Assembly (NCBI GenBank): GCA_045805065.1
Contig: JBJMMA010000003.1
Span: forward strand, 1 to 18,969
Length of the DNA: 18,969 nucleotides
Source: Bdellovibrionia bacterium
GTDB taxonomy: Bacteria; Bdellovibrionota; UBA1018
Direction: 5' to 3'
A program made the position numbers and the translations under genes. Below the pieces are notes generated by a model. That model worked only from the letters and a program-made list of their open reading frames with translations, did no database searches and had not been told where the DNA came from. Shown here one piece after another: positions 739 through 17,923 of this stretch. Position 1 is the first letter of the stretch, and the number at the start of each line of letters is the position of its first letter.

Positions 739-2262
739 CTATGCCGCGTGAGCATTCGCCGCTTTTTTCAGCTGATCCACGATGGCGTCCATATTGAACG
801 ATGCAGACTTCTGGAATGGAGGAAACTCGATAAAGCTCTTTCCTGCCGTTTCGACTACCTGCTGTACAAACACAAAGCGCCAGAACTCAAAAACAAACCA
901 GTTGTAATACGACATAGAACCCACAAGCCCCGTACGCTCCAACGGGTCAAGTCGGAGATGAGTCAGAATCGGCATGTCGGGCTTCACCGTTCCTCCAAGC
1001 CAGCCGCCAGGCTGATCGATGAAGCGGTACTTGAAGTCATCCACCCGTACAGCGCCAAGCGTAGACTCGGCAAAGTAAAAGATCTCTCGTCGGCGAGAAG
1101 GTCCCTTTCCCGTGATGAGGTCGGTCTGATCATAGCCGTCGAGGTGGACCTTGTAGGTCATTTCGCCAAGCTGCTTGCCCTTCTTCAACTCCTCCGCAAT
1201 ATTCGGGTCACCCGCAATCGACACGAAAGTCGGGAACCAATCGAGACCAGATATGATCTGATTTTCGACTACTCCAGCAGGCACCTTGCCCGGCCACCGG
1301 ATCATGCAAGGAACACGAAATCCGCCCTCCAGCACTGTCCCCTTTCCGCCCGCAAACGGAGTTTGTCCGCCATCAGGCCAGGTGAAGTTTTCGGCACCAT
1401 TATCCGTGGTGAAAACCACGATCGTATTGTCATCCAGACCGTCATCTTTGAGCTTTTTCATGAGGGTGCCCACGATGTCATCCAGCTGCGCCATCCCGGC
1501 TTCATAAACGCTCCAGCCGTTCTGCGCATTTCGCATCTTCTGGTATTTCTCAGAAAGATGAGTGACAACGTGCATTCGAGTCGGATTGAGATAAGCAAAG
1601 AACGGTTGATTTGCTTTCCTTGCTCGATCGATGAAGTCCATCGTGTGGCCGAGAATTTCGTCGTCCACAGTAGTCATTCTATCAGGGTAAAGCGGGCCGG
1701 CGTCCTTGATCTTTTGCTTTCCCACCCGTCCCCACCGCAGATCCTCAGTCGGGTCATCTTCATCGCTTGCCACACAATGAAGCATGTTTCTTGGTCCCAC
1801 TTTATTCTTCAGCTCTTGAGGATAGTTTGGATGCGCAGGATCTTCCATTGCATCGAGATGATAAAGATATCCAAAAAACTCATCAAATCCATGAACCGTT
1901 GGTAGGTATTCATTGCGATCGCCGAGGTGGTTTTTCCCAAACTGCCCTGTTGCGTATCCCATAGCTTTTAATGCAGTAGCAATTGTCGGCACCTCCGCCG
2001 GGAGCCCGACCTTGGCTCCTGCCTGTCCTACGGTAGTGAGTCCAGTTCGGATCGGAAGTTGACCCGTGACAAAATTAGCTCGACCCGCCGTGCAGCTTGC
2101 CTCGGCATAATAGTCAGTAAACATCATTCCCTCCGCCGCAAGACGGTCGAGATTTGGGGTTCGTCCTGCCATCATGCCGCGGTGATAGGCCCCAATATTC
2201 AACCAGCCGATATCATCGCCCATGATGAAAACTATGTTGGGCTGTTTTCCCTTTGCGGTCAT
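739..2262 (-). CDS. Arylsulfatase (formylglycine-dependent sulfatase family)
   Basis: PNIVFIMGDDIG metal-binding start, SCTAGRANFVTG formylglycine motif (CxAxR), GYATGQFGKNHLG, HGFDEFFG, TTDNG and GGKG..EGGFRVP. RBS-like GAAGGG upstream. No signal peptide. Confidence 0.95.
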   Translation of the reverse strand: MTAKGKQPNIVFIMGDDIGWLNIGAYHRGMMAGRTPNLDRLAAEGMMFTDYYAEASCTAGRANFVTGQLPIRTGLTTVGQAGAKVGLPAEVPTIATALKAMGYATGQFGKNHLGDRNEYLPTVHGFDEFFGYLYHLDAMEDPAHPNYPQELKNKVGPRNMLHCVASDEDDPTEDLRWGRVGKQKIKDAGPLYPDRMTTVDDEILGHTMDFIDRARKANQPFFAYLNPTRMHVVTHLSEKYQKMRNAQNGWSVYEAGMAQLDDIVGTLMKKLKDDGLDDNTIVVFTTDNGAENFTWPDGGQTPFAGGKGTVLEGGFRVPCMIRWPGKVPAGVVENQIISGLDWFPTFVSIAGDPNIAEELKKGKQLGEMTYKVHLDGYDQTDLITGKGPSRRREIFYFAESTLGAVRVDDFKYRFIDQPGGWLGGTVKPDMPILTHLRLDPLERTGLVGSMSYYNWFVFEFWRFVFVQQVVETAGKSFIEFPPFQKSASFNMDAIVDQLKKAANAHAA

Positions 2263-5330: not shown

Positions 5331-6401
5331 ATGGCCAAACAGCAATCCATCCTCAATCGCGTTCTTGATCCGCCCAGATACGGCTTTGAGAGAAACGGAA
5401 ATCTGTATATTCCCTCTCACTCTGAAATCTTCCGCGAGTTTTTCCACAGGCTCAACATTTTCCACTCGCGGAAGAATTGGCTTCCTTTCTTTGGATGGCT
5501 CTCTACTCTCAGCTTTTCGCTTCCACTAGTGATCTTCTTTGCTCGCTTCTTTAGCTGGCCCATCGCACTGGCCGGCTTCATTTACAGCGCAGTGATTCTG
5601 GGAAGCCACGGTACTTTTTGGCTTCACCGCTACTCGACGCATCGGGCGTTTTGCTTTAGGAACGCGCTGGTCCGAGAGATCTGCAGAAACCTTGTGATCA
5701 AGATCATTCCCGAAGAGACTTATGTCATTTCGCATCACGTTCATCACAACATGACAGAACAACCAGGCGATCCCTATAACGCTCATGCTGGAGGGCTCTA
5801 CTGCTTTTTAGCTGACGTTAACCACCAAAGTATCCACAAAGACCTGTCGGAAAAAGACTATCAGATGCTCTGCAAGCTGATGAGTCACACCGGAGTTCGT
5901 TTAAACACCTATTCCCAATATCGAAAATGGGGTTCACTTTGCCATCCGGGCTGGACTTGTCTTCACTACGTTTTGAACTGGAGCTTCTGGTACGGCGTCT
6001 TTTTTATGATCGGTGGACACGCTTTAGCCTGCGCACTTTTTGGCGGAGCCGGGGTATGGGCGATCGGCGTCCGGACCTTCAACTATGAAGGCCATGGTCA
6101 GGGAAAGGACCGGAGGCGAGATGGAATCGATTTCAATCGCCGCGATCTATCGATCAACCAGCTTTGGCCAGGGTATGTTGCCGGTGAGTGGCACAACAAC
6201 CACCACCTGTACCCCAATGGAGCAAGAAGCGGATTTTTGCGATACCAGCTCGATCTTCCCTGGCTCTTCATCCGGATGCTGAGCACAGTGGGCGTCGTGA
6301 CCACATACAAAGATTACCGGAACGAGTTTTTCAGGGATTACTATTCTCCCTATTTAACTTCGCGCTCGTTAGAACGTCCGATCACATTGAGTGGCCCTTA
6401 A
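5331..6401 (+). CDS. Membrane fatty acid desaturase (Delta9 acyl-CoA/acyl-lipid desaturase-like)
   Basis: Three His boxes (HRYSTH, HHVHH, GEWHNNHHLYP), N.EGH and hydrophobic segments. Alternative GTG start at 5325. Confidence 0.9.
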   Translation: MAKQQSILNRVLDPPRYGFERNGNLYIPSHSEIFREFFHRLNIFHSRKNWLPFFGWLSTLSFSLPLVIFFARFFSWPIALAGFIYSAVILGSHGTFWLHRYSTHRAFCFRNALVREICRNLVIKIIPEETYVISHHVHHNMTEQPGDPYNAHAGGLYCFLADVNHQSIHKDLSEKDYQMLCKLMSHTGVRLNTYSQYRKWGSLCHPGWTCLHYVLNWSFWYGVFFMIGGHALACALFGGAGVWAIGVRTFNYEGHGQGKDRRRDGIDFNRRDLSINQLWPGYVAGEWHNNHHLYPNGARSGFLRYQLDLPWLFIRMLSTVGVVTTYKDYRNEFFRDYYSPYLTSRSLERPITLSGP

Positions 6402-8239
6402 TAGGCCATCACCTTTATGATCGTATCAGCTTTTCCTGAAGCTACGGCATCGGTAGAGAGCAACGACACTCCTGGATTTTTCTCATCATAAACATGAGGT
6501 GGAGGATCGGCGGCTTTCAGGTTCCATGTCCCGTCTTTAGGCTCAATGAGCTTGAGTCGAAGCGTCTTGCCCGACTGAGTGAGTGTCGCAATACGGCCGT
6601 GAATCTTGACTTGTGCTCGGGTAGCAAAGTTCCAATGAATGACTTTGCCTTTGCTTATTCCTGCGACAGTATCCAGAATCCGAACAGATCGTTGATTCAC
6701 GATCGAGAACTGCCGGGTCACTTTCGTTGCTTGGCCGGCAAAAACGGATGAGAGGTCAAGAGTAACTCCTGGTGAGAGGCCCTTTCCTGTGAACTCGGTG
6801 ATTTGTCCGCTACCTTGAACTTGGTGGAGCTGGCCCCCAATCGTTAACGTGTTATGGCTAAATGGGCCGATTCTAAAAACGTCCCAACGTTGGCTGTCCT
6901 GTTTGCGACTCCAGAGGTCGACGTTCTTTGATTCGAGAGAAAAATAGTTTTGCATTCCTAGGTCGATGGCCCAACGAACTCCATCTCGATCCAGAACAAA
7001 CGAACCAGCATCCATATGCGCGTGACTCAGAGATGCGGAACCGCCTTTCACGGCAAGATAAAGCGCATTTGGATTGGTCCAACTGCTTCTAAAAACTGCC
7101 AGAGGCTGTGGCCCGTCTCCTTTCCAATTTAGCGGCATCCGCGGCTTTGTGGCATGAGTAAGGCTCGGGGCCCAGATCGCTATCAAGGGAAAGAAACGAT
7201 CCAGCCACGAAGACTCATTGGCTAATGTTTCTCTAAGTAAACGGTTTTGAAAAATCAGAAGGTCAGGCCTGGAGAGCTCTCTCGCAATTTCGAACACGGC
7301 GGATTGCAGGTCAGCATCCTCATCACCGTCCGAGAAATTGAATTGTTTCAGCGCGGGTCCTGTGACTTCAGCTAAGTAATCTGCCGTTGTTCTGAAACCA
7401 GGAGAATTTCCCAATTCCCAGTCGCTTCCAAGCGCGCTTTTCAAGCTGGCATTCAACAAGACCTGGTAAGTGGTTCCGTAACCCCAGTAACCGGGTCCTT
7501 CAGGGTAAATGCCATCCGGAGCGTAGGGTTTCAGTCCATATGAAACGTTTTGCAAAACCTGGCCTAGAATCTTACCGGCTTCCGTTGGCTCCTCATCCGC
7601 AATCGCCAATGCACCCATGCCAAGGCCGCCAAAGCAAACCTGATTCCAATTCATTTCTTTATGGTACCAGCTCGTATTAGGAAGACTTGGATCGTCGCCT
7701 AACTTGAGAGCCTTTTCGATAATGGCGTTTTTTAGTATTTTCCGAGTTTCAGGAGCAAGATCTGCGTAGAGCCAATCATAGCCAAAAGACACAGCCGTGG
7801 TCATTTCCGCGACATCCAAGAAATGAGTTGGGTTCCAGTCCGGAAAGCCAGCCACAGTAATCAGTTCTTTCTCAGCGCGTGCTTTGTACTGATTTGCCAA
7901 TGTGTTTTGATCAGTGGTTTTGTAAGCAAGCGTTAGATCCAGAATTCGTCGAATCGCTTCCCGACTCACGGACAAAAGGCGCTTTCCTTCCTTTTTATAA
8001 GTGAGCGGAGGTTTGACGAGGATCGCTTGAGCTTCCTTCTCAACACGAAGAAGAATCTGATTCAGCACTGGCTCCGTTTTGCGGCGTTCTTTGAGTTGAC
8101 TCCAGGTCGCTTCATTCACTAGAAGCCGTGGGTGCACTTTTCTCAAGCCAGTCAGGATATCGTCTTTGGCGAACGCAGGCTTTGCGGCCGGAAGCAAAGT
8201 CATCCCCATCGCAAGGCCTGTCAGCAGGATCCGTTTCAT
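6398..8239 (-). CDS. Secreted heparinase II/III-family polysaccharide lyase
   Basis: Signal peptide ending PAFA, then HPRLL, WNP.HFLD.AEM, NWNQVC, YPEGPGYWGYG, HAHMDAGSFV and HNTLTI. Confidence 0.88.
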   Translation of the reverse strand: MKRILLTGLAMGMTLLPAAKPAFAKDDILTGLRKVHPRLLVNEATWSQLKERRKTEPVLNQILLRVEKEAQAILVKPPLTYKKEGKRLLSVSREAIRRILDLTLAYKTTDQNTLANQYKARAEKELITVAGFPDWNPTHFLDVAEMTTAVSFGYDWLYADLAPETRKILKNAIIEKALKLGDDPSLPNTSWYHKEMNWNQVCFGGLGMGALAIADEEPTEAGKILGQVLQNVSYGLKPYAPDGIYPEGPGYWGYGTTYQVLLNASLKSALGSDWELGNSPGFRTTADYLAEVTGPALKQFNFSDGDEDADLQSAVFEIARELSRPDLLIFQNRLLRETLANESSWLDRFFPLIAIWAPSLTHATKPRMPLNWKGDGPQPLAVFRSSWTNPNALYLAVKGGSASLSHAHMDAGSFVLDRDGVRWAIDLGMQNYFSLESKNVDLWSRKQDSQRWDVFRIGPFSHNTLTIGGQLHQVQGSGQITEFTGKGLSPGVTLDLSSVFAGQATKVTRQFSIVNQRSVRILDTVAGISKGKVIHWNFATRAQVKIHGRIATLTQSGKTLRLKLIEPKDGTWNLKAADPPPHVYDEKNPGVSLLSTDAVASGKADTIIKVMAY

Positions 8240-8843: not shown

Positions 8844-9437
8844 ATGCGAAAACTCAAGATCATCGAACATATCTCGCTGGACGGCGTGATCCAGATCTCC
8901 AACTGTCTAAACAACGACGGCGACTTCCCATACGGCGACTGGACCGCGCCCTATCGAACTCCTGCTGGATTAGAGACAGTGCTTTCGATTTATGGCGCGA
9001 AGTTCGATCTGCTCCTTGGCCGCCGAACCTACGATCAATGGTCAAGCTTCTGGCCCAAGGCACCCAAAAGTCCGATGGCGGATCGCCTGAATGCGGCGAC
9101 AAAGTACGTCGCAACCCACAGACCAGAGAGTCTGGCGTGGGGCCCGTACGAGGGCGTTGGACCGAACCTTGTGGATGGCGTTCGCAGCATCAAGGAGAAG
9201 GAAGGACCGGACCTGATCCTCTCAGGCAGCTCGACACTGACTTCGGCGCTGCTGGAGCATGGGCTTGCCGATGAGTTGGTTCTGCTGGTCAATCCTGTCC
9301 TGCTGGGCAAAGGGAAACGCCTTTTTGCGGACGGAACTCCTCCCCTCGCATTTACACTCGAGGGCACGAAGGTGATGCCATCAGGCATCATCATCAATAC
9401 CTACAAGGCCGCTGGCCCTTTGCAAAACCTGAAATAG
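8844..9437 (+). CDS. Dihydrofolate reductase family / RibD C-terminal domain protein
   Basis: HISLDGVIQ, LLLGRRTY, KYVAT, GSSTL and DELVLLVNPVLLGKGKRLF. Confidence 0.92.
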   Translation: MRKLKIIEHISLDGVIQISNCLNNDGDFPYGDWTAPYRTPAGLETVLSIYGAKFDLLLGRRTYDQWSSFWPKAPKSPMADRLNAATKYVATHRPESLAWGPYEGVGPNLVDGVRSIKEKEGPDLILSGSSTLTSALLEHGLADELVLLVNPVLLGKGKRLFADGTPPLAFTLEGTKVMPSGIIINTYKAAGPLQNLK

Positions 9438-9452
9438 GGCGATGAAGCTCAG

Positions 9453-9785
9453 TTATTGGCCTTGTCCGCTCAACGCAACCTGTTCAAGCACTTCCCCGTT
9501 TGAGCGGATTTGCATGGAGCCTGTGCGACTTCCCACAGCACTTGGGGTGAATTGAACGCTTAAGGTGCAACTTTCACCGGGAGCTAAACTGCCTCCACAT
9601 GGCTTCAACGAGTCTTCTGGCGGCTGAGAAGAGCCGGAATGAAGAGGGTTGGAATTTAAGGAGGAAAAACTGAGTTTTGTTTGAGTGCCCGGACTCAAAA
9701 GAGCGCTGGACAGGTCACAGCTCTGAATACTGAGCGCAACGATCAGAAACACCGGGGTTAAAAATAGCACTCGTTTTGAGTTCAT
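9453..9785 (-). CDS. Small putative lipoprotein carrying the C-terminal half of an ASH/choice-of-anchor-D Ig-like domain
   Basis: Signal MNSKR-VLFLTPVFLIVAL-SIQS-C, a Ser/Pro linker, then CGGSLAPGESCTLSVQFTPSAVGSRTGSMQI...QVALSGQG. ATGA overlap with the upstream stop. Confidence 0.75.
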   Translation of the reverse strand: MNSKRVLFLTPVFLIVALSIQSCDLSSALLSPGTQTKLSFSSLNSNPLHSGSSQPPEDSLKPCGGSLAPGESCTLSVQFTPSAVGSRTGSMQIRSNGEVLEQVALSGQGQ

Positions 9786-11038
9786 AAAGAAACCTCGAAG
9801 TCTCCAGAAATGCCGTAATCTGAATCAAGATTCAACGGCTCTGTTCCGGTATTCGTCACGGTAATGACTTGAGCGGCACTTTGGGTTCCCACGGCCTGGT
9901 TTCCGAAATTCAGAGTTTTCGTAGAAAGGGTCACAACCGGAGCACTTCTGTACTGATAGGCGCCGAGGTCGATACTCGAACCGCGACCATTCCCGTCGAA
10001 ATCAGTAGACGGTGCAGAAGTGAGAGTGCCTTTCCCAATCGCTGGAGATGAAGATCGAAGGTGATAATCGCCACTCCCATCGGCCCGGTACTGAACGAAT
10101 AGCGGATCTCGGGAGATTGTGCCACTGACTGATCCGCTGATCATTTTCACATTGGTTCCACTTGAATAGACCAGGTTGTTGACGTATCGATTGTTCGCGC
10201 CAACCGAGCCGTACTCAACAATTCCGTAGGTACTGTTGTCATAAACGACATTGTTAGCGACGTAGTTGTCCTCAGAGCCTCCTGGCAATGCGCCACCGTC
10301 GCCATCACCGATCAGAATCCCCTCTTTGTTATGAAAGACGGTATTATTGACGATCGTCGAGGAAGTGGCTCCATGCCACTGATGAATACCGACGGCCCCG
10401 ACGCCCGAGACAATATTATTGATCACCACGTTATCTGGGCTTGCGATGTAAATTCCCTGTACCGTATTGCAGGTGCCCATCAGGGCATAGCCGATATTTG
10501 ACACAATATTACCCGAGATGAGAACGTCACCGATGGTGCCAGGAGTATCAATGGCTCCGCCACCGCTTCCATTACACCCACCGGTCACGGTGAGGTCATG
10601 GACATAATTGTTTGTAATAGTGAGATGGGCGCCTTCAGCTAAAATACCGAGGCGTCCGCTGCCGGTAATCTCAAAACCGTCAATATCGACGTAGCTTCCT
10701 TTGGAATCCCAGGCAATTCCAGTTCCGCTCATCACGATTTTTGCGCGATTTTTTGGATCAGAAACATAGCGAATATGGGCCGAGGCTGTTCCACTGGTTG
10801 ACGATACAATTCCGTAATTGCTCAGGCTCGGAGCGGATACATTGTAAGCTCCACCAGCGACGTGAATTGTCGTACCTGGCGAGGCTGCTTGAGAGGCTTT
10901 TGAAATCGTTAAAAACGGAGATGACTGAGTACCTGAGTTGGAGTCGCTTCCACCCGGTGATACGTAAAGATCTGCAGCAAGCGCGCTGAGCGAGAACAAT
11001 ACGGACATCGACGATAGTAAACTTTTAGAAAAAGTCAT
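9782..11038 (-). CDS. Secreted right-handed beta-helix (pectin-lyase-like, DUF1565-type N-terminus) protein with choice-of-anchor-Q motif and a C-terminal half ASH domain
   Basis: GAAGGGG RBS before ATG 11038 and signal peptide ending SALA. DLYVSPGGSDSNSGT..SPFLTISKA, repeated I.NN.V strands, DPLFV..DYHL..SSPAI..G..D.DG..R..IDLGAY, then TLS..TLNFGNQAVGT.S.AQ.ITVTNTG..PL. Confidence 0.9.
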   Translation of the reverse strand: MTFSKSLLSSMSVLFSLSALAADLYVSPGGSDSNSGTQSSPFLTISKASQAASPGTTIHVAGGAYNVSAPSLSNYGIVSSTSGTASAHIRYVSDPKNRAKIVMSGTGIAWDSKGSYVDIDGFEITGSGRLGILAEGAHLTITNNYVHDLTVTGGCNGSGGGAIDTPGTIGDVLISGNIVSNIGYALMGTCNTVQGIYIASPDNVVINNIVSGVGAVGIHQWHGATSSTIVNNTVFHNKEGILIGDGDGGALPGGSEDNYVANNVVYDNSTYGIVEYGSVGANNRYVNNLVYSSGTNVKMISGSVSGTISRDPLFVQYRADGSGDYHLRSSSPAIGKGTLTSAPSTDFDGNGRGSSIDLGAYQYRSAPVVTLSTKTLNFGNQAVGTQSAAQVITVTNTGTEPLNLDSDYGISGDFEVSL

Positions 11039-11138: not shown

Positions 11139-11186
11139 GTCAACGTCTACAAGGGTCAACATCTACAAGAGTCAAAATCTACAAGG
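11139..11186. repeat. Three tandem 16-bp direct repeats (GTCAAMRTCTACAAGR)
   Basis: gtcaacgtctacaagg (11139-11154), gtcaacatctacaaga (11155-11170) and gtcaaaatctacaagg (11171-11186). Confidence 0.9.
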
Positions 11187-11198
11187 CCGCTGAACAGT

Positions 11199-11222
11199 CT
11201 CAGCAACTGGCTCAGCAACTGG
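11199..11222. repeat. Perfect 12-bp tandem duplication CTCAGCAACTGG x2
   Basis: Copies at 11199-11210 and 11211-11222, spanning the stop codon of the upstream minus-strand gene. Confidence 0.85.
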
Positions 11223-11565
11223 ATTTGGCTCCATGAACCTGCTTGGACTCGCTTCCAAGAACGGCCTGCCTTTGAGCTCGCCCTGTACTGGTAAATGCAC
11301 CATTGATGTCTTTTTGCTGTGGCTGCCATGCGGTGAAGTCATTGCTCAGGATGTCGTTGAGAGGATCCCCCACAGTCATAAAGTCGCGTGTTACATCATT
11401 CGGGCCGTTATTTTTTGGGCCCGGGACCTTCGACCAGTCTATCTGCCCCGACTCAGGACAGACATCACTCTGATTGCTGTTTGCTGCCGCTGAAGCTGAC
11501 TGACCGCTCATCGCGGCTACAAATAACAAAACCAGCGCCTCAATCATTCGTTTAAACCTAAGCAC
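11212..11565 (-). CDS. Hypothetical secreted protein (~117 aa)
   Basis: GTG 11565 with AAGGAG RBS 6 nt upstream gives MLRFKRMIEALVLLFVAAMSGQSASA|A, a classic signal peptide. No family recognised. Confidence 0.6.
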   Translation of the reverse strand: MLRFKRMIEALVLLFVAAMSGQSASAAANSNQSDVCPESGQIDWSKVPGPKNNGPNDVTRDFMTVGDPLNDILSNDFTAWQPQQKDINGAFTSTGRAQRQAVLGSESKQVHGAKSSC

Positions 11566-11630
11566 GTCTCTCTCCTTGCTACTCTCCTTAGGACCATCCA
11601 CTGGGATCGCTCCTTGGGACCTTATTTTGC

Positions 11631-11646
11631 TGCAATGCCTTAGCCA
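11631..11646 (-). promoter_or_regulatory. Sigma54-type -24/-12 promoter for the secreted hypothetical (possibly the beta-helix unit)
   Basis: Minus strand reads TGGCTAAGGCATTGCA. Confidence 0.6.
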
Positions 11647-11671
11647 TATTTTATAAGCCCCTCGCACCCAG

Positions 11672-11687
11672 CGGAATGAGGCATGCA
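11672..11687 (+). promoter_or_regulatory. Possible sigma54-type promoter for the cupredoxin lipoprotein
   Basis: CGGAATGAGGCATGCA has GG-N10-GC spacing and lies back-to-back with the 11631-11646 motif. Confidence 0.3.
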
Positions 11688-11748
11688 CAAGTTGAGCGTA
11701 AAGAAAAAGCGAGCATGCCATGGGAGCAAATCCCGACGGGAGCTGTTT

Positions 11749-12693
11749 ATGATCCGCTACACCCAAACATCGGCAGTTATCGGACTCTTACTGGTTTGGA
11801 CTTCCTTCGCCGTTATCGGGTGCGGTGGAGATAATAATGAACAAGCCGCGCCACCTCCTCCAGCTCCAGGTGTGGTTTCACCCACGCCAAGTCCTAGTGC
11901 TAGTCCAAGCCCAAGCGTTACTCCCGTTATCATCAATATTAATATCACTCAAATCTTCGTCTCGCAGACGATCATCGTGCAACAAAACATCGTGAATAAC
12001 ATCGTCACGGTGAACTTCTTCAACAATGACTCGATCAACCACTCAATTGTCGCTGATGACGGAAGCTTTGATTCAGGTGTGATTGCTCCAGGACAAAGCG
12101 GATCGATTAACATCAGCCAGCCAGGCGATTTTGCGATTCATTGTGATGTGCATCCCAATGATCCAAATGAACGAGGTACCGTTCGTGTCCTTTCGCCTAC
12201 TGCGCCTTCTCCTAGCCCGAGCGTATCCCCATCTCCAAGTCCAAGCACTTCGCCTTCCCCAAGTCCAAGCCCGTCCCCTTCGGCTAGTCCAAGTGTATCT
12301 CCATCACCTAGCCCAAGCATTTCTCCATCGCCAACAGCTACCTCCTCCCCGGGAGCAGGAACACCCGCACCGGTTGTTTCACCTCCAGGAACCATTCTCA
12401 TCGCAACAGGTGCCGCAACTCGAACCAGCGATGCTTTTGCGCCAGGCCCCGTAAACGTTCCTCAGAACTCGACTGTGACGATTACGAACAACGATACCGT
12501 TGCCCACACGGCAACGGCTGATGATGGAAGCTTTGATACCGGCGTGATTCAACCAGGACAAAGCGCCACAATCACGGTGTCACAGTCAGGAGACATCCCG
12601 TTCCATTGCAGTATTCATCCGAACATGACGGGGGTCGTTCATGTGGAAGGTACCGCGCAGGCTTCGCCAACGCCAAGCGCGACCTCTTCATAG
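11749..12693 (+). CDS. Lipoprotein with two cupredoxin (plastocyanin/amicyanin-like) domains joined by Pro/Ser linkers
   Basis: GGGAG RBS and lipobox VIGC. Domain 1 is NND..NHSI.ADDGSFDSG...HCDVHP; domain 2 is NND..AHTATADDGSFDTG...HCSIHPNMTG. Confidence 0.88.
   Translation: MIRYTQTSAVIGLLLVWTSFAVIGCGGDNNEQAAPPPPAPGVVSPTPSPSASPSPSVTPVIININITQIFVSQTIIVQQNIVNNIVTVNFFNNDSINHSIVADDGSFDSGVIAPGQSGSINISQPGDFAIHCDVHPNDPNERGTVRVLSPTAPSPSPSVSPSPSPSTSPSPSPSPSPSASPSVSPSPSPSISPSPTATSSPGAGTPAPVVSPPGTILIATGAATRTSDAFAPGPVNVPQNSTVTITNNDTVAHTATADDGSFDTGVIQPGQSATITVSQSGDIPFHCSIHPNMTGVVHVEGTAQASPTPSATSS
12196..12350 (+). repeat. (Ser-Pro)n low-complexity linker in the cupredoxin gene
   Basis: SPSPSVSPSPSPSTSPSPSPSPSPSASPSVSPSPSPSISPSP, written with varied codons. 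Confidence 0.85.
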
Positions 12694-17417: not shown

Positions 17418-17894
17418 TCACTGCTTTTCAGTCTCGGTGGTAGTCGTAGTTTGCACCTGATCGGTTCCAGCCTGCTGATCCTGCTGCTCTTGCTGAGCTT
17501 GGCCGGCCTGTTCCTTGGGCTGTGGCGTCTTAAGCTTCTGCTGCTCAGCACTCTGCTGCTTCTGCTGGGCCTGGGTCTGCTGTTGCGCTGTCTGTTGCTT
17601 CGTGGTCTGCTCCTCGAGAGCGCCGGCCTGCTCCTTGCCCTGCGACTCCTTCACAGCAGCCTTTTGCTCGCCACGCTCCTGAAGTGTGTCAGCCTGCTTC
17701 CGCAGAGCGTCCGCCTGACTCTTGGATTGCTCACGAATTGTACCAGCCTGCTCCTTCGACTGCTGTTTCAGAGCTTCAGCCTGCTCACTGCCTGAACTCT
17801 TCATCTTGTTTGCTTGCTGCTTTGCCTGATCACAGGCCACTCCAGTGACCAGGACCGCCATCGTCGCCAAAAAAATCTGAATATTTGTTTTCAT
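17418..17894 (-). CDS. Gln/Ala/Lys/Glu-rich lipoprotein with 11-residue repeats (LEA/apolipoprotein-like)
   Basis: MKTNIQIFLATMAVLVTGVA-C lipoprotein signal, then KEQA..L.EQ repeats. Confidence 0.8.
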   Translation of the reverse strand: MKTNIQIFLATMAVLVTGVACDQAKQQANKMKSSGSEQAEALKQQSKEQAGTIREQSKSQADALRKQADTLQERGEQKAAVKESQGKEQAGALEEQTTKQQTAQQQTQAQQKQQSAEQQKLKTPQPKEQAGQAQQEQQDQQAGTDQVQTTTTTETEKQ

Positions 17895-17907
17895 ACCTGA
17901 ATCGCCT

Positions 17908-17923
17908 CGCAACATGCGCGCCA
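17908..17923 (-). promoter_or_regulatory. Sigma54-type promoter for the Gln-rich lipoprotein
   Basis: Minus strand reads TGGCGCGCATGTTGCG. Confidence 0.6.

What the first reader, a model, noticed from the sequence alone, without database searches (positions are those of the whole stretch)
9453..9945. One ASH/choice-of-anchor-D Ig domain split between a secreted beta-helix protein and a coupled lipoprotein
Seen: the beta-helix protein ends with PVVTLSTKTLNFGNQAVGTQSAAQVITVTNTGTEPLNLDSDYGISGDFEVSL*. The next gene starts at an ATGA overlap (9785-9782) with its own lipoprotein-type signal (MNSKRVLFLTPVFLIVALSIQSC) and a ~40 aa Ser/Pro linker. It ends with CGGSLAPGESCTLSVQFTPSAVGSRTGSMQIRSNGEVLEQVALSGQGQ*. 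Established: ASH/choice-of-anchor-D domains read 'L.FG...G......T.TN.G..PL......DF...C...LAPG.SC...V.F.P...G...G.....V.LSG.G' as one chain. The two pieces are therefore complementary halves, with no obvious strand missing or repeated. Inference: both are exported, and translational coupling favours 1:1 synthesis. The halves could reassemble in trans, tethering the beta-helix enzyme or adhesin to the membrane through a natural split-Ig tag/catcher, analogous to pilus donor-strand complementation. The alternative is a one-off ~186-bp insertion or rearrangement, but no target-site duplication is visible.
Basis: partly seen in the sequence, partly recalled or inferred. Interest (0 to 1): 0.85.

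Follow-up and report, generated by a model that had tools for sequence, protein, structure and literature searches.

The report
Two-gene split Ig-domain lipoprotein anchor
A secreted sugar-cutting enzyme of an uncultured soil bacterium stops halfway through a small Ig-like domain. The next gene, a tiny likely lipoprotein, carries the other half, and related organisms keep the same split, so the halves probably rejoin to tether the enzyme to a membrane.

Summary
Gene A (9782-11038, minus) is signal peptide, PL9-like beta-helix, then profile positions 13-58/64 of the 108-position choice-of-anchor-D model. Gene B (9453-9785, minus; ATGA overlap, GAGG 7 nt upstream) is a lipoprotein-type signal, a 37-aa low-complexity linker, then positions 60/61-104.

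It is not a one-off insertion. Five more B-type proteins (40-63% identity) and three more A-type proteins that stop at the same point exist in other assemblies. Three such pairs share contig statistics. Both halves are about as conserved as the enzyme (75% and 72% against 82%), while the linker is not (30%). All seven other copies of the domain in this genome are continuous.

Trans-reassembly is inferred, not shown. The complex prediction gave only weak support (0.55 against 0.00 for controls).

The closest known thing is NCBIfam's untested "lipo-invert" tail, an Ig domain interrupted by a membrane hairpin that ends in a lipobox. This locus does not match that model and looks like a two-gene counterpart. 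Earlier notes of this scan describe a similar two-gene split in a phage on other DNA.

Verdict: a real feature and a new variant of a known kind.

The parts
9782..11038 (-). Gene A: 418-aa secreted beta-helix protein that ends inside a choice-of-anchor-D domain. An upstream TTG at 11143 would add 35 aa and is probably not used.
   Evidence: the 418-aa form is the one on record. Pfam Beta_helix 46.2 bits and DUF1565 32.2 bits. choice_anch_Q 32.5 bits.
10973..11038 (-). Signal peptide of A (residues 1-22, ...SLSALA|ADLYVSP), Sec/SPase I type by eye.
   Evidence: Sequence. The same layout is seen in orthologues P0010 and P0011. No signal-peptide predictor was available.
9953..10972 (-). PL9-like right-handed beta-helix, with the choice_anch_Q segment at its end (residues 23-362).
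   Evidence: AF2 model, pLDDT mostly above 85. Best Foldseek hit is pectate lyase Pel9A, 1ru4, E 4.3e-11, TM 0.58/0.60.
9785..9946 (-). N-terminal half of the choice-of-anchor-D Ig-like domain (A residues 365-418; strands A, A', B, C, C').
   Evidence: NF012200 profile 13-58 or 13-64. Local HMM positions 1-52 of 107. Mapped on the model of a complete paralogue.
9782..9785 (-). ATGA overlap: the stop codon of A (TGA) overlaps the start codon of B (ATG).
9793..9796 (-). GAGG, a Shine-Dalgarno-like motif 7 nt upstream of the ATG of B, lying inside the end of gene A.
   Evidence: Read. Its function is inferred.
9453..9785 (-). Gene B: 110-aa small putative lipoprotein.
   Evidence: Five relatives of 100-110 aa exist.
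9717..9785 (-). Signal peptide of B with the lipobox SIQS|C (residues 1-23, with Cys23 invariant in the family).
   Evidence: Rule check. Alignment.
9606..9716 (-). Low-complexity Ser/Pro/Asn-rich linker of B (residues 24-60). It contains the conserved KLSFSS motif and a spacer of variable length.
   Evidence: 30% mean pairwise identity, with in-frame length changes of 9-10 residues.
9456..9605 (-). C-terminal half of the choice-of-anchor-D domain (B residues 61-110; the Cys-Cys loop and strands E, F, G).
   Evidence: NF012200 profile 60-104 or 61-104. Local HMM positions 57-106 of 107. 72% mean pairwise identity among six family members.

Best explanation
This is an inherited two-gene split of one Ig-like (choice-of-anchor-D/ASH) domain that most likely serves as an anchor supplied in trans.

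Gene A makes a Sec-exported PL9-like beta-helix polysaccharide lyase whose chain stops after strands A-C' of its last domain. Gene B is translated from an overlapping start. It makes a small exported protein that is probably lipidated on the invariant Cys after its signal peptide. A flexible linker follows, then the missing Cys-loop and strands E-G.

Outside the cytoplasm the two incomplete halves would fold together into one beta-sandwich. The enzyme would then hang non-covalently from a lipid-anchored stub.

Shown: the complementary halves, their conservation, co-occurrence of the pair, and export-type signals.
Inferred: binding, lipidation, 1:1 translational coupling, and the final location (periplasmic face or cell surface).
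For: 1. Complementary profile coverage: 13-58/64 for A and 60/61-104 of 108 for B. A local HMM built from nine complete paralogue domains gives 1-52/55 for A and 57-106 for B.

2. The break maps to a loop. In the AF2 model of complete paralogue P0013 (domain pLDDT 90-97), it falls between strand 423-427 and Cys429.

3. The split is inherited.
- A-type proteins P0010, P0011 (both 420 aa) and P0017 (a fragment) all stop after ...SGDFQ[MI][IM]G[AT]GK.
- There are five other B-type proteins of 100-110 aa at 40-63% identity.
- Three of three pairs that could be checked have the same number of contigs and the same longest contig: 2/249886, 2/129615 and 4/46285.

4. Constraint. The N-half shows 75% mean pairwise identity against 82% for the beta-helix (6 pairs each). 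The C-half shows 72%, against 30% for the linker and 42% for the signal peptide (15 pairs). Linker length changes are all in frame.

5. All seven other choice_anch_D domains of this genome are continuous, and all sit on paralogues of A.

6. Modelled alone, the N-half of A is poor: pLDDT 75, 71, 74, 56, 44 over residues 371-418, with almost no strands.

7. Complex prediction returned the verdict 'weak support'.
- Score 0.55 (runs 0.55, 0.54, 0.56); best of 3 controls 0.00.
- The mark was reached by 116 of 157 solved complexes and 2 of 215 mismatched pairs. At 0.60 or under, it was reached by only 18 of the 157 solved complexes and by both of the mismatches that passed.
- Runs agree in at least 97% of contacts; partner pLDDT is at least 62.
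- My own 3-row alignments were used. A pass may only reflect likeness to intact Ig domains.

8. The window's B meets a lipobox rule recalled from PROSITE. All six B proteins have K/R in the n-region, a hydrophobic core and a Cys at the aligned position.

9. The same design principle, a lipobox placed inside the last Ig-like domain, is catalogued as NF058595. I verified it on the tail of locus L021 (38.1 bits, cut-off 37).
Against: - No experiment and no RNA data exist.
- The complex score is in the weak band, and no contacts were returned.
- Two of six B proteins fail the strict lipobox rule at the aligned Cys (E at -2; N at -1), and one matches only at another Cys three residues upstream. SPase I cleavage that leaves a free Cys is therefore not excluded.
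- Adjacency and overlap of the orthologous pairs could not be seen, because their DNA is in none of the collections I could scan.
- The tail of A differs here (EVSL) from the three orthologues (Q[MI][IM]G[AT]GK).
- B keeps a conserved [VLF]xFSS motif that full-length alignments place on the strand before the break, in 2 of 3 B proteins and 4 of 6. The halves may therefore overlap rather than fit exactly.
- A beta-helix tree does not resolve the split proteins as one clade. Monophyly is not rejected (p-AU 0.29), but it is not shown either.
- No orthologue was found in the 116 (order), 127 (class) or 401 (phylum sample) genomes searched, each count including G000.
Confidence: 0.6

Rival explanations
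1. The halves are both functional but do not pair with each other. The N-half of A would be an 'atrophied' partial domain or spacer. B would be an independent small lipoprotein that homodimerises through its half-sandwich or binds another partner.
For: - Binding is not demonstrated, and the complex score is weak.
- B carries a conserved [VLF]xFSS motif of its own.
- Functional partial domains are known. I saw only the abstract of PMC4432964, in the search listing.
Against: - The two pieces cover complementary profile ranges.
- They co-occur with identical contig statistics in 3 of 3 pairs that could be checked.
- No other N-only or C-only choice_anch_D piece exists in this genome.
- The core pattern of a whole domain is kept in both halves.
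Confidence: 0.25
2. This is a decaying remnant. An insertion or rearrangement broke the last domain of one paralogue, and both stubs are drifting without function.
For: - Paralogues in the same genome keep a continuous domain.
- The 186-nt intervening piece has no other copy in the genome.
- The tail of A has changed in this lineage.
Against: - The split is shared by four A-type and six B-type proteins, down to 40% identity, with open frames and in-frame indels.
- The halves are far more conserved than the linker: 72-75% against 30%.
- A start codon, a GAGG motif, n-region charges, a hydrophobic core and the Cys are all in place.
Confidence: 0.07
3. A and B are joined into one chain by recoding (frameshift or read-through at the ATGA). 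That would give a single protein with an internal hydrophobic segment, a one-chain lipo-invert-like tail.
For: - The catalogued lipo-invert tails are single chains with an internal lipobox.
- The two frames are one base apart at an overlap.
Against: - B has its own ATG, a GAGG at the right spacing and a basic n-region in all six family members.
- There is no first membrane helix before the stop of A.
- No slippery heptamer can be read at 9782-9800.
- NF058595 does not match: 0 of 6 B and 0 of 3 A proteins at E<=1.
Confidence: 0.04
4. It is an assembly or annotation artefact of a metagenome-assembled genome.
For: - The genome is a 262-contig MAG.
- Depth in the runs that hold it is about 3.
- No laid contig covers 9747-9778.
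Against: - Logan contigs identical to the window cover 9300-9746 and 9779-10053, including the junction between linker and C-half. They may, however, come from the source sample.
- Decisive point: assemblies from other sources (JGI, Logan) give the same two gene products.
Confidence: 0.02

Closest known systems
NCBIfam NF058595 'invert_tail'
   Same: A lipoprotein-type signal with a Cys sits inside the last Ig-like domain of an exported protein. A low-complexity linker and the remaining strands of that domain follow. I verified this layout on locus L021: tail TM - HRRRR - TM ending VSSC - G/S linker - last strands, 38.1 bits against a cut-off of 37.
   Different: - Here there are two genes, with a stop/start in place of the first membrane helix and basic loop.
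- The cut is in mid-domain (about 5 strands plus 3) rather than before the last strands.
- The domain is choice-of-anchor D.
- The model does not match A or B: 0 of 9 proteins at E<=1, and there is no match on this contig at E<=10.
Two-gene split beta-sandwich with a mini-lipoprotein in a Bacteroidota phage
   Same: A secreted enzyme lacks the end of its last small beta-sandwich, and a neighbouring small lipoprotein carries it.
   Different: Different host type (phage), enzyme (esterase) and domain. Only the last two strands sit on a 57-residue lipoprotein. I did not examine that locus.
Phage Tuc2009 baseplate joint BppU-BppA (PMC4742702; passages read)
   Same: It is a solved case of an Ig-like (titin-like) domain built from two polypeptides. 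A beta-hairpin of BppU (residues 296-321) completes a sheet of BppA domain 2.
   Different: Two strands are donated rather than half a domain. It is a virion structure with no export and no lipid anchor.
Donor-strand complementation in chaperone-usher pili (general knowledge; search listing)
   Same: An incomplete Ig-like fold is completed by a strand from another chain in the periplasm.
   Different: One strand only, polymerising subunits, and a dedicated PapD-like chaperone and usher. None of these is present among 19 window ORFs scanned.
Naturally split inteins, and autoproteolysed SEA/GAIN/FIIND domains (recalled; a FIIND abstract was seen in the listing)
   Same: One fold is held together non-covalently by two polypeptides.
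   Different: Different folds. These are cytoplasmic or produced by self-cleavage, and they have no anchoring role through a lipoprotein.

Membership tests
choice-of-anchor D domain (NCBIfam NF012200) | One chain matches the model end to end at or above 45 bits. | tested here: not met
   A: 38.5 bits for profile 13-58, or 42.8 bits for 13-64. B: 39.3 bits for 60-104, or 38.1 bits for 61-104. The seven complete paralogue domains score 60.8-78.8 bits.
choice-of-anchor D domain (NCBIfam NF012200) | Taken together, the two chains cover the model once. | tested here: met
   Coverage is 13-104 of 108 with an overlap of at most 4 positions for the window pair. In 4 of 6 B proteins the alignment begins earlier, at profile positions 40-52.
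Bacterial lipoprotein (SPase II substrate) | K/R in the n-region, a hydrophobic core, a lipobox and Cys +1. The rule {DERK}(6)-[LIVMFWSTAG](2)-[LIVMFYSTAGCQ]-[AGS]-C is recalled from PROSITE. | tested here: met
   The window's B matches at Cys23. Across the family, 3 of 6 match at the aligned Cys, 1 matches at a Cys three residues upstream, and 2 fail (E at -2; N at -1). All 6 have K/R and a hydrophobic core.
Bacterial lipoprotein (SPase II substrate) | Actual lipidation and LspA cleavage. | not testable with these tools
   This needs palmitate labelling, globomycin or mass spectrometry.
lipo-invert tail (NCBIfam NF058595) | Match to the model at or above 37 bits. | tested here: not met
   0 of 6 B proteins and 0 of 3 A proteins match at E<=1. 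In the whole genome the best score is 19.6 bits and there is none on contig C3. Positive control: the L021 tail scores 38.1 bits.
lipo-invert tail (NCBIfam NF058595) | TM helix - basic loop - TM helix with lipobox, inserted in one reading frame. | tested here: not met
   A stops at 9782-9784 without a hydrophobic segment. B starts with its own ATG.
lipo-invert tail (NCBIfam NF058595) | The lipobox Cys is followed by a low-complexity linker and the remaining strands of the interrupted Ig-like domain. | tested here: met
   Compare the L021 tail.
Chaperone-usher donor-strand complementation | A PapD-like chaperone, an usher, and pilin subunits lacking one strand. | tested here: not met
   No such Pfam family was found in 19 window ORFs. 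Half a domain is missing here, not one strand.
PL9-like right-handed beta-helix polysaccharide lyase | Beta-helix fold nearest to PL9 structures. | tested here: met
   Pfam Beta_helix 46.2 bits against a cut-off of 25.9. Foldseek: 1ru4 Pel9A, E 4.3e-11, TM 0.58/0.60; 5olq rhamnogalacturonan lyase, E 4.6e-9.
PL9-like right-handed beta-helix polysaccharide lyase | Catalytic base and Ca2+-binding residues. | not tested
   No residue-level comparison was made.

The most novel reading that the evidence does not exclude
The pair would be a self-contained, portable 'anchor in trans': the two-gene form of the lipo-invert principle. A half-and-half split of an Ig domain lets lipoprotein sorting of the 9-kDa partner decide where a secreted enzyme ends up, possibly carrying it to the outer membrane or cell surface. 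B's conserved [VLF]xFSS strand would first cap B's own half-domain and then be displaced by the N-half of A, which is a strand-exchange step. It would be a natural periplasmic split-protein tag.
Probability: 0.2. Interest if true: 0.85.

Novelty: new variant of a known kind. Interest (0 to 1): 0.62.

Why it matters
If the halves do reassemble, this is a very small natural system for testing how an Ig-like domain interrupted by a lipoprotein signal anchors exported proteins. It consists of a 54-residue tail on one protein and an 87-residue mature lipoprotein. NCBI has catalogued that design as the lipo-invert tail. My search for the term found no paper.

Because the two parts are separate genes, each can be expressed, deleted or swapped on its own. 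That is not possible with the one-chain tails.

It would also be an example of a cellular protein domain split roughly in half between two gene products and kept that way by selection. It could serve as a starting point for periplasm-compatible split tags.

If the halves do not bind, the pair is still a clean case of two conserved partial domains, which are usually artefacts. On that last point I saw only the abstract of PMC4443539, in the listing.

Tried and rejected
1. Mobile element or repeat as the source of the 186-nt intervening piece. blastn (word size 7) and tblastn against the whole genome gave only the self hit (next best E 0.6 and 0.31).

2. A vestigial strand in B's linker. The six linkers alone score 0.8-2.1 bits against the local domain HMM, and 15-47 of 200 shuffles score as high. 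This is not supported on its own, although full-length alignments do extend into the linker. Left open.

3. Orthologues in species-representative genomes. None were found in 116 genomes of the order (E<=1e-5; only generic ASH matches), 127 of the class or 401 sampled from the phylum (E<=1e-12). Each count includes G000. The same-genus genome G001 has no match to A at all.

4. DNA of the orthologous pairs.
- Two scans of metagenome contigs found no split-type locus. In one search the best hits cover only the beta-helix, at 71% identity or less.
- One scan of genome contigs gave 10 loci, all generic ASH repeats.
- Adjacency, overlap and dN/dS in orthologues therefore remain untested.

5. Exhaustive profile search with the B alignment. 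It gave 16335 hits, and the best 150 are all giant multi-ASH proteins of 1024-7259 aa. It was of no use for finding more small B-type proteins.

6. Tree of the beta-helix part (16 rows). It is unresolved: the split group needs 2 changes, and monophyly is not rejected (p-AU 0.29).

7. Reads. Four soil-metagenome runs from one study hold the stretch or parts of it. They are kept as Logan contigs at depth about 3 and may include the source sample. No differences from the window were seen. Nothing was laid on 9747-9778. No RNA holder is listed.

8. NF058595 in this genome. There are 14 matches at E<=10, all below the cut-off and none on this contig.

9. Literature. No paper in the listings describes a two-gene split of a choice-of-anchor-D/ASH domain. 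The search for 'lipo-invert' returned 0 papers. Supplements were not consulted.

10. Look-up of the B sequence in this scan's earlier findings gave no look-alike.
Full report
**What is there**

On the minus strand, gene A runs from 11038 (ATG; an upstream TTG at 11143 is probably not used, since the 418-aa form is the one on record) to the stop at 9782-9784. Gene B runs from 9785 to 9453. The stop of A and the start of B overlap as ATGA, and a GAGG lies 7 nt upstream of B's ATG.

A consists of:
- a signal peptide (...SLSALA|ADLYVSP);
- a right-handed beta-helix (Pfam Beta_helix 46.2 bits, DUF1565 32.2 bits; choice_anch_Q 32.5 bits);
- 54 final residues that match only positions 13-58 of the 108-position choice_anch_D model (E 1.3e-9).

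B (110 aa) consists of:
- a signal peptide ending SIQS|C;
- a 37-residue Ser/Pro/Asn-rich linker;
- 50 residues that match positions 60-104 of the same model (E 7.4e-10). Pfam's ASH and HYDIN/VesB Ig models agree.

**More than chance, and unique in this genome**

A scan of the whole 4.2-Mb assembly with NF012200 finds nine matches. Seven are complete domains (60.8-78.8 bits), and all sit at the C-termini of paralogues of A on contigs C27, C87, C144, C260 (two domains) and C248 (two domains). The other two are the partial ones here: 13-64 at 42.8 bits and 61-104 at 38.1 bits.

A local HMM built from nine complete domains (seven from those paralogues, two from P0012 and P0013 of another assembly) places the A tails on positions 1-52/55 and the window's B on 57-106 of 107.

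I modelled a complete paralogue, P0013, with AF2 (domain pLDDT 90-97). On that model the break lies in the loop between strand 423-427 and Cys429. A thus keeps strands A, A', B, C and C'. B keeps the Cys-Cys loop and strands E, F and G.

**Not a one-off**

Searches of the 5.8-billion-protein collection found five more B-type proteins of 100-110 aa: P0003, P0004, P0275, P0276 and P0277, at 40-63% identity and 96-100% coverage.

They also found three more A-type proteins: P0010 and P0011 (both 420 aa, 77% and 75% identity) and the fragment P0017. All three stop at the same point of the domain...SGDFQ[MI][IM]G[AT]GK.

For the three pairs that could be checked, the A-type and B-type proteins have identical contig statistics: 2 contigs with longest 249886; 2 contigs with longest 129615; 4 contigs with longest 46285. 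This points to tight linkage. I could not see the DNA itself.

Conservation is domain-like in both halves:
- N-half 75% mean pairwise identity against 82% for the beta-helix (6 pairs each);
- C-half 72% against 30% for the linker and 42% for the signal peptide (15 pairs);
- linker length varies by 9-10 residues, always in frame.

This pattern rules out a recent insertion, a pseudogene and an assembly error as the main explanation.

**Export signals**

All six B proteins have K/R in the first seven residues, a hydrophobic core and a Cys at the aligned position. I applied a lipobox rule recalled from PROSITE. It is met at that Cys by three of the six, including the window's B. One meets it at a Cys three residues upstream. 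Two fail (E at -2; N at -1).

The two remaining Cys residues of mature B correspond to the Cys pair that flanks the LAPG loop in complete domains. Lipidation is a natural role for the third, but it is not shown.

The contig also carries MlaD, MlaE and an ABC ATPase, which fits a bacterium with two membranes. Earlier notes of this scan call the genome Bdellovibrio-like. I did not check that.

**What A does**

The AF2 model of A (mean pLDDT 83.6) is closest to pectate lyase Pel9A (1ru4, E 4.3e-11, TM 0.58/0.60) and to a rhamnogalacturonan lyase (5olq), followed by PL6 lyases and alginate epimerases. A heparinase II/III-like gene and a sulfatase lie nearby. A is most likely a secreted polysaccharide lyase.

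**Do the halves bind?**

This is inferred. In the model of A alone, the N-half is poorly defined: pLDDT 75, 71, 74, 56, 44 over residues 371-418, with almost no strands.

Complex prediction with A 358-418 and mature B 24-110 gave these results:
- Score 0.55 (runs 0.55, 0.54, 0.56); best of three controls 0.00; verdict 'weak support'.
- The mark was reached by 116 of 157 solved complexes and 2 of 215 mismatched pairs. At 0.60 or under it was reached by only 18 of those 157 and by both mismatches that passed.
- Runs agree in at least 97% of contacts; partner pLDDT is at least 62.
- My own small alignments were used, and no contacts were given.

Halves of one domain can pass simply because intact Ig domains are well known to the model. 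I therefore count this as a small addition. The main argument is evolutionary: two half-sandwiches that cannot bury their cores alone are kept, together, with whole-domain conservation.

**Closest known**

A word search of this scan's earlier notes led me to NCBIfam NF058595, the 'lipo-invert' putative C-terminal anchoring domain.

I checked what it looks like on locus L021, the top hit of the genome-contig scan. That 1817-aa acidobacterial protein ends with a hydrophobic helix, HRRRR, a second helix ending VSSC, a G/S linker and the last strands of an Ig-like domain. It scores 38.1 bits against a cut-off of 37.

The window's pair shares the idea: a lipobox inside the last Ig-like domain, then a linker, then the rest of the domain. 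It is not a member, for these reasons:
- 0 of 6 B and 0 of 3 A proteins match at E<=1.
- Nothing on this contig matches at E<=10.
- There is no first helix.
- The cut is in mid-domain.
- There are two genes.

So the scan has met this principle before on other DNA.

A solved precedent for an Ig-like domain built from two chains is the Tuc2009 BppU hairpin that completes BppA domain 2 (PMC4742702, passages read). Pilus donor-strand complementation supplies one strand and needs a chaperone and an usher, which are absent here.

**Open points and negative results**

- The intervening 186 nt has no other copy in the genome, so its origin is unknown.
- B's conserved [VLF]xFSS motif is drawn onto the strand before the break in several full-length alignments. 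The linkers alone score like shuffles, so a repeated strand is neither shown nor excluded.
- The beta-helix tree does not resolve a single origin of the split.
- No orthologue turned up in the 116, 127 or 401 genomes of the order, class and phylum searched, or in the contig collections.
- Contigs from four runs of one soil study are identical to the window but leave 9747-9778 unlaid. No RNA run is listed.
- In my six literature searches I found no description of this arrangement.

**Verdict**

This is a real two-gene split of a choice-of-anchor-D domain that several related organisms keep. Its most likely role is as a lipoprotein anchor supplied in trans for a secreted lyase (confidence 0.6).

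It is a new variant of a known kind, being related in principle to the untested lipo-invert tail and to strand complementation. Its main value is as a simple experimental handle on that anchoring principle.

Noticed in passing
G000 contigs C27:455-2014, C87:5848-7368, C144:24090-25595, C260:16139-17956, C248:21423-23405, C161:1-1110, C2:3-362: The genome holds an expanded family of paralogues of gene A with interchangeable C-terminal modules: one or two complete choice_anch_D domains, or a Cys-rich repeat (C161). These usually follow Pro/Thr/Ser linkers. C27 repeats PSPSPTVTPK four times. The same-genus genome G001 has no match to A at all.
   Followed up: partly
window 6398-8239 (-) and 739-2262 (-): A heparinase II/III-like protein (PF07940, E 5.8e-13) and a sulfatase (PF00884, E 2.8e-57) lie on the same contig. 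This suggests a setting of sulfated or acidic polysaccharide breakdown for the lyase-like gene A.
   Followed up: no
window 11212-11766 (-): An ORF directly upstream of gene A on the same strand has no family match. An internal Met begins a signal-like stretch (MIEALVLLFVAAMSGQSASA...), so a small secreted protein may be encoded there.
   Followed up: partly
L021:2788-8241 (+): A 1817-aa acidobacterial protein made of many ASH/choice_anch_D repeats ends in a lipo-invert tail (NF058595, 38.1 bits): hydrophobic helix, HRRRR, a helix ending VSSC, a G/S linker, then the last strands.
   Followed up: partly
proteins P0006 and P0008 (other metagenomes): Relatives of gene A of 680-729 aa carry two beta-helix modules in tandem, joined by a poly-Pro/Thr linker.
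   Followed up: no
window 17418-17915 (-): A 165-aa ORF with no Pfam match has a weak sub-threshold hit to ZorA (NF033915, E 0.0066, 15.5 bits against a cut-off of 100). This is probably chance.
   Followed up: no
window 11683-12693 (+): A 336-aa protein has a C-terminal cupredoxin-like domain (PF13473, E 1.6e-15) and a weak CsgH-like stretch. It is transcribed divergently from the upstream ORF at 11212-11766, one gene beyond gene A, and overlaps that ORF's 5' end.
   Followed up: no
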